Shown here: positions 2,566-6,777 of the stretch, piece by piece
How the letters are laid out: the number at the start of each line of letters is the position of its first letter
How positions within the stretch are numbered: position 1 is the first letter of the stretch
Source of the DNA: a virus
Lineage: Duplodnaviria > Heunggongvirae > Uroviricota > Caudoviricetes
Strand: one strand, 5' to 3'
Virus record (IMG/VR): IMGVR_UViG_2526164595_000004
DNA: 6,777 bases
Translations under genes and position numbers: made by a program
The notes under the pieces: model-generated
What the model was told of the DNA's origin: nothing
Databases searched by the model: none
The model's input: only the letters and a program-made list of their open reading frames with translations

Positions 2566-2904
2566 TCATGGCCGTTGCCAGTGATGATGGCACCAGAACA
2601 CTCTGCCAGCATCAACATGCTCAACAGGCTCACCTGTTTCATCGTCAACACCGCACAGGTAAAAACACTTCAGAAGCCTGATACGTTCCAGAATACCAAC
2701 GTCATCCTCACCGGTGTGCCTGCATGCCTGCTCATGAACGGTATCATCAACATCTGCGATTTCATTTTCCGAGGCGCAAACCTCCTCTTCCCACTCTGCC
2801 ACACGCTGTGCGATATCCGCAGCACTCCCCGACATATCCGCCTCGCGCCCCAGCAGACCAGCCAGTTCACAAAGACGTTTCAGATTTTCTTCTTTTGTTG
2901 CCAT
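2566..2904 (-). CDS. FI: DNA-packaging / head assembly protein gpFI-like
   Basis: Start chosen at the internal ATG (2904-2902) preceded by AGGAGG (plus 2910-2915) with a 5-nt spacer, giving 112 aa. N-terminal half MATKEENLKRLCELAGLLGREADMSGSAADIAQRVAEWEEEV parallels lambda FI MTKDELIARLRSLGEQLNRDVSLTGTKEELALRVAELKEEL. The C-terminal part is more divergent and ends in an odd Cys/His/Trp-rich tail, so the 3' end is uncertain. Confidence 0.7.
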   Translation of the reverse strand: MATKEENLKRLCELAGLLGREADMSGSAADIAQRVAEWEEEVCASENEIADVDDTVHEQACRHTGEDDVGILERIRLLKCFYLCGVDDETGEPVEHVDAGRVFWCHHHWQRP

Positions 2905-2955: not shown

Positions 2956-3985
2956 TTATTTCACCTGTACCACCACAAACTCATCCGGATCCGGCAGCAC
3001 CATCAGCGGTGCGGACTGCGTCATGGTGAATTCACAGGACGGATCGCCCACAGTCAGCCAGTGTTTCGGGTAACGGGAAGAAGCCACCACACCTTCAGAC
3101 AACGCCTGTGCATCCTTAATGGCTCCATAGCAACGAATCCCCTCTGCTGCCGTATTCCCCAGCACCAGCGTGCCCTCCGGCAGATAACGTTTTTCGGTAC
3201 CGTCCTCTGCCACATAAGACGTTTTCGCTACCACAATGGCCAGATCACCGTAATACCCTTTGAAGGATACCACTGCGCCCAGGTCTTTCACTGCCGTTTC
3301 GAGTTGTGAATTTGAGCCGCGACGGGTATCCAGTTTTTCGCGGAACAGCTTAAAGCCATTCAGCAGACGCCAGACCGTACCGTCCATAATGGCAATATTC
3401 ACAAGACCGCTGGCCTGATCGCAGTAAAGGTCAATATCATGCGTCGGATCGAACGTGTCACGATCCTGCTCAGACCACTCCTTACCGCTACCTTGTATGA
3501 TGTTATTCTCCGTCAGAGCGGCCGAAATCCACCTCGACCGTGTCAAACTGTTCCCCTTCCATGGTGTATTTGCCATACAGCACGGCATTCACCGCCTGCA
3601 TTTCTTCCACCTGGACAATAGCGTGCTCTTCCTGTTTGAGGTTATCGGTGATGATACGCAGACGACGGTAGGCCGGGTCGTTCAGCTGAGCCGGATCTTC
3701 ACCGGGAAGGCGCTCAACCGCCTGCTGGTAATTAAATTCGTGTTTCGGCTTGACGTAGCCCGGACGCAACACGCGGGTTTCACCACCACGATGGCGCAGC
3801 ACTTTTCCTTCAACGATCGGGGAGACATAGGCCGCCACCGGCGTTTTTCCGGTAATTTTGTCCAGCATCACCTCTTCGGTGTGGAAATTCACCGTACGGC
3901 GGAAAAACAGCTCCAGAAATAGCGCACGGAATTTAACTTTTTGTTCGGTATAACCGAGTAACTGGCGGGTCGTAAACAATCCCAT
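2956..3985 (-). pseudogene. E: Major capsid protein gpE-like, reading frame interrupted by an apparent +1 insertion near 3510-3511 (pseudogene or sequencing indel)
   Basis: The N-terminal 160-aa ORF (3503..3985) and C-terminal 210-aa ORF (2956..3588) are in different frames but together are collinear with lambda gpE (341 aa). Examples: YVSPIV.G.V.R.RGG...PGYVKPKHE, AIVQVEEMQAV.AVL.GKYTM.GE.FD.VEVD.GRS in the first; ENNI.Q.G..EWS..D...DPT.DI, KLDTRRGSNS.LETAVKDLG, EFTM.QSAPLM in the second. Minus strand reads tct gac G gag aat aac at the junction. SD AAAGGAA upstream of ATG 3985. Confidence 0.85.
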
Positions 3986-4426: not shown

Positions 4427-5029
4427 TCATGGCATGGCCATGAGCATTTTCACGTCCGCATCACCGTCTTCTGACGTCTGTGACACGCCACCCCGCACCG
4501 CTGCCGGTGAATGATTCGCCATGAAATGTTCAAACAGGGCGGTTGTGGATGCAGAGACCGGTTCGGCCTTACCTGATCCCGCAGCCAGCACAGCCCGGGC
4601 GTTCTCCACGGTCATTCCCGGGCAGGCCGCCAGTTTTTCAGCCTGCGCTTCTGCCCCTTTTGCCTCATCCAGGGCCATGATCTGATCACGAAGTGAGGGC
4701 CCGGCATCCGCCAGTGGTGCAGCCGCCAGGATCGGGCGGGCTTTTTCCACCGTCATCTCCGGCATCGCCGCCAGCGTTGCTGCCAGTTGTTCACGACCGT
4801 TCGCTTCTTCACACGCCATAATGCGATCGGCTTCACTCTGCGCGGATGCCACCGGCTGCTGCGGTGCCGCCGCGGCCAGAATCGCCCGGGCCTGTTCAAC
4901 GCTCATGCCCTGTTGCCCTGCCAGCATCGTGGCAAGCTGTTCACGTCCTTTCGCTTCCTGGCATGTCAGGATCCCCATCACTCGCTGGTTCTCCTGCACG
5001 GCGGCTTCCGTTGCAGTTAATTGCGGCAT
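4427..5029 (-). CDS. Nu3: Nested in-frame scaffolding protein (Nu3-like) from an internal start within the 3' part of C
   Basis: Internal ATG (5029-5027) preceded by GAGGAGG (plus 5034-5040). Product of about 200 aa begins MPQLTATEAAVQENQRVMGILTCQEAKGREQ..., paralleling lambda Nu3 (...ENSRIMGILNCEEAHGREEQARVLAETPGMTVKTARRILAAAP). The nested C/Nu3 arrangement is established for lambda; the exact start here is inferred. Confidence 0.55.
   Translation of the reverse strand: MPQLTATEAAVQENQRVMGILTCQEAKGREQLATMLAGQQGMSVEQARAILAAAAPQQPVASAQSEADRIMACEEANGREQLAATLAAMPEMTVEKARPILAAAPLADAGPSLRDQIMALDEAKGAEAQAEKLAACPGMTVENARAVLAAGSGKAEPVSASTTALFEHFMANHSPAAVRGGVSQTSEDGDADVKMLMAMP
4577..4984 (-). repeat. 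Three tandem, diverged copies (about 140-160 nt, 36-41 aa) of the scaffold motif inside C/Nu3
   Basis: Protein repeats RVMGILTCQEAKGREQLATMLAGQQGMSVEQARAILAAAAP, RIMACEEANGREQLAATLAAMPEMTVEKARPILAAAP and QIMALDEAKGAEAQAEKLAACPGMTVENARAVLAAG. Matching DNA similarity is visible, e.g. ctgttcacgtcctttcgcttcctggcatgtcag versus ttgttcacgaccgttcgcttcttcacacgccat. Confidence 0.7.
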
Positions 5030-5920
5030 AGTGCCTCCTCTGACATTACTGTTCAGCGCCGTGGCCATCACACTGATGGCATCCGACGCATTGATTAATT
5101 CATCCGCCAGCCCGGCCTCAATGCCGGACTGACCTTCAAAAACGGCGGCCTCTGTTCCCGTGACTGCATCAACAGACAGACCGGTATACATCGCCACTTT
5201 TTCGGCAAACATCCGGTGCGCCGCATCAATCCGCTGCTGCATATCCTGGCGAACCTCTGCCGGCAACGCTTCAAACTGATTGCCATCCACCTTGTGCGCC
5301 CCGGCATAAATCAGCGTGATATCCACACCGGCCTGCGCCAGATGACCGGCATAGCTGACATGGCTCATCATCACGCCAATGGAGCCGATACGGGATGTCT
5401 GGGTAACCAGCCGTCGGGAGCAGGCCGACGCCAGCAGCATGGCTGCAGAACAGGCCGTGTCATTGCACAGTGCCCAGACCGGCTTCTGCTGCCGGAGGCG
5501 GTAAATCATGTCAGCGCAGTCAAACGCGCCGGCGGCCTGCCCGCCGGACTGTCAATGTCCAGCAGTATGCCCCGCACCTGGCTATCTGCCATTGCCTGCT
5601 GAAGACAGGCGACAATGCCGTCATAGCCAGTCATTCCGGAAAATGGCCGCATCCCCCCCAGCCGGTGCACCAGCGTGCCGGTCACCGGCAGTACCGCAAT
5701 ACCGTTCACCACCCGGTAAACACGGGCCGGTCGTTTACCTCCGGCCATGTACTCGTCCGTTTCAGCCAGCATTCCGGGAGCATCAAGCTGTACCTGCTGT
5801 TGCGGTACCGAAAGACTTGCTGCCCCCATCTCGCGCCCCAGCGCGCAAAAGAAAACCCGCGCATAGGCGGGCTCCAGAAGCAGCGGTTCATTGAATGCTG
5901 CTGCAATAATGTGTGAAAGA

Positions 5921-6777
5921 TTACGTCTCACGTGGTGTTGTCTCCTCTTCCGGCCTGCGACTCTCCGCTATCTGCTGCTGATACGCCTGCGCTATCCACA
6001 CCGGACGTGAGAGTCCGGCTTTTTCCCGCTCTGCAGATTCCCTGACCTGCTGGCGGAAAATGTCCTGATAATCCTCGCCCATCAGCGCCAGCTCTTTCTC
6101 ATACGTGCTCAGTCCGGCCTCAATGCGCATCACTGATTCCTGAACCTCCTTGAGCCCGTCAATGGCCATTCTTCCGGCTCCAATCCACTCAGCCCGTGAC
6201 CAGGCTGATCGCGCCTGATAAAAATCAAACCGTGCCCGTGGCGGACGAATAATCCCCCGAAGAAGTGCCTCTTCCAGCCAGCAGGAAAACATCTGCGTGG
6301 CCAGCCGGGACGCAATAAATTTTCGCCGCCCCATAAAATAGCGCCACGACTCATTGGCGGATGCGCGGGCACTTGAGTAACTGACCTTCGAGTAATCACG
6401 GGACAACTGTTCGTAGGAAACGCCAAGACCGGCGGCGATATACCGCAGCAGCGCCTGTTCAAGCGCCGAAAATCCATTGTCTGAATCCTGCGCGGTCTGA
6501 AGTTTCAGATCATCACCGGGGAAAAGGTGCGGAATTTTGACACCGCCCAGCGTCACGCTATTCGTGTCATACCAGGTGGAGAACTTATCCAGAATATTAA
6601 TAAGCGGATTATCCTTCTGCCCTCGCGGCGCACCGGCGATATATTCAAAGGACCTCTTCGGTATCAAGGTCACTTTCTAATCGTCGCTGCATACATCGCC
6701 TTCTACTATGGCCGACTGAAGCTGTGTTGCCTGCAGGGAATCCAGCATCTTCAGCCGTTCCATAACGCTGTAAAACT
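5921..6777 (-). pseudogene. B: Portal protein gpB-like, 3' portion (5' end off-window); frame broken by three clustered +1 indels and an in-frame TAG at 6677-6679
   Basis: Same-frame translation upstream of the TAG (FYSVMERLKMLDSLQATQLQSAIV) and the 250-aa ORF downstream (..GG.K.PHL.PGD.L.LQTAQD.DNG.S..EQ.LLRYIAAGLGVSYEQLSR.Y...SYS.ARASANESW.YFMGRRKF.ASR...QMF.CWLEEA...AGRMAIDGLKEVQE.VM.IEAGLSTYEKE) match lambda gpB. Between them the conserved KAMYAATI and ESDLDTEEV segments are only readable in the other two frames. Confidence 0.85.

What the first reader, a model, noticed from the sequence alone, without database searches (positions are those of the whole stretch)
5536..5550. Frameshift (1-nt deletion in a G-run) splits the S49-family prohead protease upstream of its catalytic region
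The N-terminal C ORF ends ...GILLDIDSPAGRPPARLTALT-stop, while the lambda-like continuation (GGQAAGAFDCADMIYRLRQQKPVWALCND..CSA...) is in another frame. Adding a single G restores it. The conserved CSA(G/A) segment that contains the putative catalytic serine lies downstream of the break, so a real shift would give an inactive protease. The nested Nu3-like scaffold ORF has its own start and would be unaffected.
Basis: partly seen in the sequence, partly recalled or inferred. Interest (0 to 1): 0.5.

Follow-up and report, generated by a model that had tools for sequence, protein, structure and literature searches.

The report
Probable sequencing-error frameshift in prophage protease
The one-base gap that splits the phage head protease gene is really in this sequence, but the sequence is a small, error-laden draft contig that blends two near-identical prophages, so the break is most likely an assembly or base-calling mistake, not biology.

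Summary
On the minus strand a GGG run found in all relatives is GG here (window 5544-5545). The phage-21/lambda gpC-type S49 prohead protease therefore reads ...DIDSPAGRPPARLTALT-stop, and the rest (GGQAAGAFDCADMIY...CSAA...) follows in another frame. Adding one G gives a 501-aa protein 3-4 residues from intact homologues.

The break is very unlikely to be biological.
- The window is the whole 6,777-nt contig AIHO01000041.1 of the E. coli DEC15A draft.
- None of 2,689 homologous places in 1,742 complete E. coli genomes shares the deletion.
- The contig looks like a site-by-site blend of two phage-21-like prophage copies found in the finished genome of E. coli O111:H21 strain 15A. It equals one or the other at 300 of 309 variable columns.
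- Both copies carry GGG and an intact protease gene.
- Three other genes are broken by 1-nt indels. The portal has three insertions within about 130 nt of the contig end. The major capsid and FI genes break exactly where the contig switches between the two copies.
- Outside the contig end there is almost no private substitution.

Verdict: a draft-assembly artefact in an ordinary lambdoid head gene. A genuine private inactivating mutation is the minor alternative. Low interest.

The parts
5544..5545 (-). GG run where every relative has GGG. This is the 1-nt deletion that shifts the frame of the protease gene, and it falls in the codons of the conserved SPGG motif.
   Evidence: alignments; 0 of 2,689 places in complete E. 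coli genomes match the 71-mer exactly; the listed best hits differ by a single gap.
5506..5931 (-). N-terminal fragment ORF of the gpC-like protease. It is 141 aa, and its last 13 residues (AGRPPARLTALT plus stop) are out-of-frame junk. GenBank EHX96993.1.
   Evidence: It has no Pfam hit on its own.
4427..5509 (-). Downstream ORF (360 aa counted from an internal Met) carrying the Peptidase_S49 domain and the Nu3-like C-terminal part. The open frame actually extends upstream to about 5550.
   Evidence: Pfam PF01343, E = 6e-36.
5447..5449 (-). Codon of Ser162 (restored numbering) in TACSAAM. It aligns with the Ser of the AASGG motif of Bacillus subtilis SppA.
   Evidence: alignment to 3rst_A; coordinates. 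That this SppA serine is the nucleophile is from my own knowledge.
4427..5029 (-). Nested Nu3-like scaffolding ORF. It is 200 aa, in the same frame as the C-terminal part of C, with its own ATG preceded by GGAGG. The deletion does not affect it.
   Evidence: The corresponding CDS and RBS are annotated in phage 21.
6652..6704 (-). Three private 1-nt insertions in the portal gene (6704 +A, 6678 +A, 6652 +T), exactly 26 nt apart and 74-126 nt from the contig end. The second creates a TAG. Three private substitutions sit beside them (6656, 6624, 6623).
   Evidence: The 111-mer has no megablast match in complete E. coli genomes.
3508..3521 (-). Frameshift in the major capsid gene (split into 160-aa and 210-aa ORFs). 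It lies at an interleaved junction between copy-B-type and copy-A-type sequence. The window keeps B's extra T and A's extra G from a pair of compensating indels.
   Evidence: The hybrid 71-mer has no match of 95% identity or better in complete E. coli genomes.
2598..2601 (-). One base missing at the switch from copy-A-type to copy-B-type sequence in gene FI. The last ~20 residues of FI are put out of frame.

Best explanation
The frameshift is a technical error in a draft assembly, not a feature of the phage. The window is one short contig of the E. coli DEC15A draft. It covers the head-tail genes of a phage-21-like (lambdoid) prophage that is present in at least two near-identical copies in this lineage. 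The assembler merged reads from both copies into one consensus that flips between the two alleles. Where the alleles differ by indels the consensus is out of frame (capsid E, FI). At the low-coverage contig end it carries spurious insertions (portal). In the protease gene a GGG run was called as GG. In the real genome the gene is most probably an intact 501-aa gpC-type protein: an N-terminal S49 serine protease with a C-terminal scaffold part that is also made separately as the nested Nu3-like protein. Shown: the deletion, its uniqueness, the hybrid make-up of the contig, and the intact genes in both candidate parental copies. Inferred: that strain 15A is the same strain as DEC15A or a very close relative, and that the missing G is a base-calling or consensus error.
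For: (1) The window is the whole 6,777-nt contig AIHO01000041.1 of GCA_000250495.2, E. coli DEC15A. The 141-aa product is on record from that one contig only.
(2) The exact 71-mer around the deletion is absent from all 2,689 homologous places in 1,742 complete E. coli genomes; the listed best hits differ by just the one gap. It is also absent from GTDB species representatives and IMG/VR. The 17 full-length annotated phage matches span 1,802 nt against the 1,801-nt query.
(3) I aligned the window with the two prophage copies of E. coli O111:H21 strain 15A. Of 309 variable columns, the window equals copy A at 202 and copy B at 98. Only 7 are private: six lie within 155 nt of the contig end, and the seventh is this deletion. 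Two columns differ from both copies. Controls over the same 4 kb gave 22 sites not matched by A or B for PE144 and 147 for phage 21.
(4) Both copies have GGG and annotated intact 1,506-nt S49 peptidase genes.
(5) The capsid frameshift is an interleaved A/B junction between two compensating indels, and the FI frameshift sits at an A-to-B switch. Neither hybrid exists in 5,426 complete genomes.
(6) The contig starts exactly where copies A and B change from about 12 differences per 250 nt to none, as expected for a collapsed repeat.
(7) Outside the contig end there are 1-2 private indels and only one site where the window's base matches neither copy (2560), which is the reverse of what gene decay gives.
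(8) No single natural copy matches the whole window better than 98.5%, whereas 'A or B' explains all but 9 of 309 variable columns.
Against: No reads were available, so the error is inferred and not seen. The identity of strain 15A with DEC15A rests on name, serotype and the fit of the sequence, not on a record that says so. A-versus-B switching alone is not diagnostic, because a natural copy from another strain (PE144) also switches 30 times in 4 kb. Unlike the capsid and FI breaks, the protease deletion cannot be produced by mixing the two alleles, since both have GGG. It therefore needs a separate base-calling error. I could not establish the sequencing platform: the DEC genome announcement is not held.
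Confidence: 0.87

Rival explanations
1. The deletion is a genuine, recent, private mutation in one prophage copy of DEC15A. It truncates the protease at residue ~129 inside the SPGG motif. That copy could still make the Nu3-like scaffold from its own start but no active protease, so it would be defective for head maturation unless complemented by the sister prophage.
For: The deletion is in the deposited sequence. Prophage genes do decay, and a co-resident copy with an intact gene would relax selection. The deletion is not explained by allele mixing, because both alleles have GGG.
Against: It is seen in one draft contig only. Both copies in the finished O111:H21 strain 15A genome are intact. 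The contig demonstrably contains other artefactual frameshifts. Private substitutions that would accompany decay are almost absent: one site outside the contig end.
Confidence: 0.11
2. The shift is functional. Either a programmed -1 ribosomal frameshift rejoins the two frames, or the protease is naturally made as two separate polypeptides.
For: Only the bare fact that the two ORFs overlap by a few bases (stop at 5508-5506, ATG at 5509-5507).
Against: Rejoining needs a -1 slip at T-CCG-GCG, which is not a slippery X-XXY-YYZ heptamer (read directly). The arrangement is conserved nowhere: 0 of 2,689 homologous places, and every relative I examined has one 501-aa ORF. The break cuts through the SppA-like fold at the SPGG motif, not at a domain border. 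The first in-frame Met of the downstream ORF lies after part of that fold.
Confidence: 0.02

Closest known systems
Phage 21 gene 5 product (capsid protease/scaffolding protein) with nested gene 6 scaffolding protein; the lambda gpC/Nu3 equivalent
   Same: 97% DNA identity over the gene. It has the same gene order: portal, C, D, E, FI, FII, Z, U, V, G. The restored 501-aa protein differs at 15 residues. The nested 200-aa scaffold ORF has the same start and RBS position.
   Different: The window lacks one G of a GGG run, so the ORF is split into 141-aa and 360-aa pieces.
S49 family peptidases WP_033816702.1 and WP_001253945.1 of the two phage-21-like prophages in E. coli O111:H21 strain 15A (NZ_CP077477.1)
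   Same: The restored window protein is 3 and 4 residues from these. It is B-like in its N-terminal part and A-like in its C-terminal part. The flanking DNA of the window equals one or the other copy at 300 of 309 variable columns.
   Different: Both are intact 501-aa genes with GGG at the site.
Signal peptide peptidase SppA (S49; Bacillus subtilis 3rst/4kwb, E. coli protease IV 3bez)
   Same: The fold-level sequence match covers residues 77-289 of the restored protein (E = 8e-17). The SPGG motif and the Ser of the A-S-G/A motif are aligned. Pfam PF01343, E = 1e-35.
   Different: The phage protein has no membrane anchor. It carries a long C-terminal scaffold/Nu3 extension. SppA's general-base Lys position aligns with a Tyr here, with a Lys three residues further on (which residues are catalytic in SppA is from my own knowledge).
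Collapsed-repeat or chimeric consensus contigs in draft bacterial assemblies (multi-copy lambdoid prophages)
   Same: It is a short contig bounded by the point where the copies become identical. Alleles are interleaved site by site, frameshifts arise where the alleles differ by indels, and errors cluster at a contig end.
   Different: The protease deletion itself is not an allele-mixing product. It needs an extra homopolymer miscall.

Membership tests
Peptidase S49 / lambda gpC-type prohead protease | Peptidase_S49 domain above Pfam's gathering score | tested here: met
   PF01343 scores 123 bits (cut-off 24.9) on the restored protein at residues 146-293, and 124 bits on the downstream ORF. The 141-aa fragment alone has no hit.
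Peptidase S49 / lambda gpC-type prohead protease | Nucleophile serine in the conserved A-S-G/A motif, aligned with that of SppA | tested here: met
   Ser162 (TACSAAM) aligns with the Ser of SMAASGGYY in 3rst_A. Its role as nucleophile is taken from knowledge of SppA and was not tested.
Peptidase S49 / lambda gpC-type prohead protease | One continuous ORF spanning the protease domain and the C-terminal scaffold part | tested here: not met
   It is split at 5544-5545 in the window. It is met in every relative I examined and by implication at all 2,689 places. The failure is attributed to sequence error.
Peptidase S49 / lambda gpC-type prohead protease | Nested in-frame scaffold gene (Nu3 type) with its own start, and position between the portal and decoration/capsid genes | tested here: met
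   ATG at 5029 with GGAGG upstream, 200 aa. The gene order was confirmed by Pfam calls on the contig and by the phage 21 annotation.
Programmed ribosomal frameshift site | Slippery sequence at the shift point | tested here: not met
   The sequence at the required -1 shift is AGT CCG GCG GGC, with no X-XXY-YYZ heptamer.
Programmed ribosomal frameshift site | The two-frame arrangement is conserved in homologues | tested here: not met
   0 of 2,689 homologous places in complete E. coli genomes share it, and no phage record does.
Genuine prophage pseudogene | The lesion is reproduced in an independent assembly or in clonal relatives | tested here: not met
   It is found on one contig only. It is absent from both copies of O111:H21 strain 15A and from all complete genomes.
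Genuine prophage pseudogene | Accompanying signs of decay, meaning private substitutions in excess of indels | tested here: not met
   Outside the 155-nt contig end there is one site where the window's base matches neither copy (2560), against 1-2 private indels in 6.6 kb.
Genuine prophage pseudogene | Read-level support for the deletion | not testable with these tools
   No reads are available here.

The most novel reading that the evidence does not exclude
The deletion is real. DEC15A would then carry a phage-21-like prophage whose protease is knocked out inside the SPGG motif while its nested Nu3 scaffold gene stays expressible, with the copy relying on the intact protease of a sister prophage in the same cell.
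Probability: 0.1. Interest if true: 0.12.

Novelty: not a real feature. Interest (0 to 1): 0.05.

Why it matters
It matters mainly as a caution. The gene is a textbook lambdoid head protease/scaffold gene. The split ORFs deposited as EHX96993.1 and EHX96992.1, and the split capsid and portal products from the same contig, are most likely annotation debris from a collapsed multi-copy prophage in a draft genome. Scans that flag frameshifts as biology should first ask two questions: is the window a short repeat contig, and is the lesion seen anywhere else. If the deletion were real it would be one more private prophage pseudogene, which is commonplace.

Tried and rejected
- **Exact-pattern scans.** I scanned for the deletion-bearing 44-mer in GTDB species representatives and IMG/VR and found no hits. 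That gives neither a source nor a second occurrence.
- **Sequencing platform.** I tried to read the DEC genome announcement (Hazen et al. 2012, reference taken from PMC5592225), but it is not held. Searches for the accession and the strain name found nothing relevant.
- **Catalytic residues.** Literature searches for SppA and gpC catalytic residues found no usable source. Only general lambda head-assembly background was retrieved.
- **Switch count as proof of chimerism.** I first took the number of A/B switches as proof. I rejected that after the control, because a natural copy (PE144) shows 30 switches in 4 kb. The argument now rests on three things: private sites, frameshifts at allele junctions, and uniqueness of the hybrids.
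- **Failed control run.** A first control with unequal sequence lengths gave a meaningless alignment and was redone.
- **Phage 204576 as comparator.** I rejected CP025907.1 because it is itself full of single-base indels.
- **Programmed frameshifting or a two-piece protease.** I considered both and rejected them (no slippery site, no conservation).
- **Other strain-15A matches.** I did not pursue the other two places where the window matches strain 15A, which are probably tail genes of other prophages.

Full report
**What is in the window.** All sizeable ORFs with homologues lie on the minus strand. They form the head-tail module of a phage-21-like lambdoid prophage: the 3' part of the portal gene, the gpC-type protease/scaffold gene, the decoration protein, the major capsid protein, then FI, FII, Z, U, V and G. 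The annotated phage 21 record confirms the order. DNA identity is about 97% to phage 21 and up to 99.3% to prophages in complete E. coli genomes over the protease region.

- The ORF at 5931..5506 encodes 141 aa ending ...GILLDIDSPAGRPPARLTALT-stop.
- The continuation ...SGGQAAGAFDCADMIYRLRQQKPVWALCNDTACSAAM... is open in another frame down to 4427.
- Alignments show a single missing G. Relatives read TCCGGGCGGGC and the window reads TCCGGCGGGC, with the GG run at 5544-5545.
- Putting the G back gives a 501-aa protein. It differs at 3, 4 and 15 residues from two strain-15A proteins and from phage 21 gp5.
- The restored protein matches Pfam Peptidase_S49 (E = 1e-35, residues 146-293).
- It aligns with B. 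subtilis SppA over residues 77-289 (E = 8e-17). The break therefore falls inside the protease fold, in the conserved SPGG motif (residues 128-131).
- The serine of the CSAA motif (Ser162, codon 5449-5447) aligns with the serine of SppA's AASGG motif and lies downstream of the break.
- The nested Nu3-like ORF (ATG at 5029, GGAGG upstream, 200 aa) is intact. It corresponds to the annotated scaffolding gene of phage 21.
- For background, lambda C protease, Nu3 scaffold and portal B form the head-assembly initiator, and gpC is regarded as the viral protease (PMC3224144, which cites Medina et al. 2010).

**Where the window comes from.** An exact look-up of the 141-aa product shows that the window is the entire 6,777-nt contig AIHO01000041.1 of GCA_000250495.2, E. 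coli DEC15A. The product is recorded from that one contig only. The other listed members of its protein cluster are labelled partial, most of them from short contigs.

**The deletion is unique.** A 71-nt query centred on the site hits 2,689 places in 1,742 complete E. coli genomes. None is identical. The listed best hits are 98.6% identical, which is one gap in 72 columns. The deletion-bearing 44-mer is absent from GTDB species representatives and from IMG/VR.

**The contig is not trustworthy.** Against its relatives the window has other single-base indels that break genes.
- **Portal gene.** Three private insertions (6704 +A, 6678 +A, 6652 +T) lie exactly 26 nt apart and 74-126 nt from the contig end. 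They move the frame stepwise through all three phases, and the second creates a TAG. Three private substitutions lie beside them.
- **Major capsid gene.** It is split into 160-aa and 210-aa ORFs.
- **FI.** Its last ~20 residues are out of frame.

**Comparison with strain 15A.** The best full-length match is E. coli O111:H21 strain 15A (NZ_CP077477.1, 98.5%). That genome holds two phage-21-like copies of this module: copy A (L004) and copy B (L006), taken.
- In a three-way alignment, the window equals A at 202 and B at 98 of 309 variable columns.
- It is private at only 7 columns. Six of those are in the contig-end cluster and the seventh is the protease deletion. It differs from both copies at 2 columns.
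- The capsid break is an interleaved B-to-A junction that lies between two compensating indels. The window keeps B's extra T and A's extra G, a net +1.
- The FI break sits at the A-to-B switch.
- Neither the capsid hybrid nor the portal version exists in 5,426 complete genomes.
- The contig begins exactly where A and B change from about 12 differences per 250 nt to none. A collapsed repeat contig would start there.
- Both A and B have GGG and intact 1,506-nt protease genes.

**A caution on the argument.** Switching between A and B is not by itself proof of chimerism. A natural copy from strain PE144 shows 30 switches over 4 kb. However, it also has 22 sites matched by neither copy, and phage 21 has 147. 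The window has 7, all in the two places named above. The case rests on four things together: the near absence of private substitutions, frameshifts placed at allele junctions, an error cluster at the contig end, and the uniqueness of each lesion.

**Interpretation.**
- **Most likely (about 0.87).** The contig is a consensus of reads from two co-resident prophage copies, and the missing G is a homopolymer miscall.
- **Minor alternative (about 0.11).** It is a real private mutation in one copy.
- **Effectively excluded.** A programmed frameshift or a naturally two-piece protease. The required -1 shift has no slippery heptamer, the arrangement is conserved nowhere, and the cut goes through the fold.

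**What remains inferred.** I could not see reads. I could not confirm from a record that strain 15A is DEC15A. The link rests on the name, the O111:H21 serotype and the fit of the sequence, and that DEC15 strains are O111:H21 is from my own memory. I could not establish the sequencing platform, because the DEC announcement paper is not held.

**Verdict.** The gene is an ordinary, already known lambdoid head protease gene. The frameshift is most probably not a real feature.

Noticed in passing
window 6652-6704 (minus strand, portal gene): Three private single-base insertions lie exactly 26 nt apart (74, 100 and 126 nt from the contig end), with three private substitutions next to them. They shift the portal frame through all three phases, and the second creates a TAG. 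The regular spacing is unexplained; it is probably low-quality read ends.
   Followed up: partly
window 3508-3521 (minus strand, major capsid gene): The major capsid gene is split into 160-aa and 210-aa ORFs by a net +1. The cause is an interleaved junction between two alleles that differ by a pair of compensating indels 7 nt apart. The hybrid is found in no complete E. coli genome.
   Followed up: yes
window ~2598-2601 (minus strand, FI gene 3' end): One base is missing at the switch from copy-A-type to copy-B-type sequence. FI ends ...GRVFWCHHHWQRP* instead of ...VLVPSSLATAMIQHGTAEYA*, and the normal FI/FII start-stop overlap is lost.
   Followed up: yes
L004 6001 / L006 6276 (strain 15A copies A and B) versus window 6777: The contig end coincides with the point where the two prophage copies of strain 15A go from about 12 differences per 250 nt to none, which fits a repeat-collapse boundary. 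The other contig end (after gene G, before T) lies inside a stretch where A and B are identical. It may be set by two further partial copies in that genome, which I did not locate.
   Followed up: partly
L003 (CP025907.1, Escherichia phage 204576): This public 'complete genome' phage record differs from the window, and where compared from the other relatives, by dozens of single-base indels, mostly in short homopolymer runs, and it is unannotated. It looks like an uncorrected error-prone assembly and is unsafe as a reference.
   Followed up: no
L004 and L006, FI gene (window ~2600-2880): The two co-resident prophage copies carry very different FI alleles (122 versus 127 aa, with a divergent central part) inside otherwise near-identical head modules. 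This is a local mosaic patch typical of lambdoid phages.
   Followed up: no
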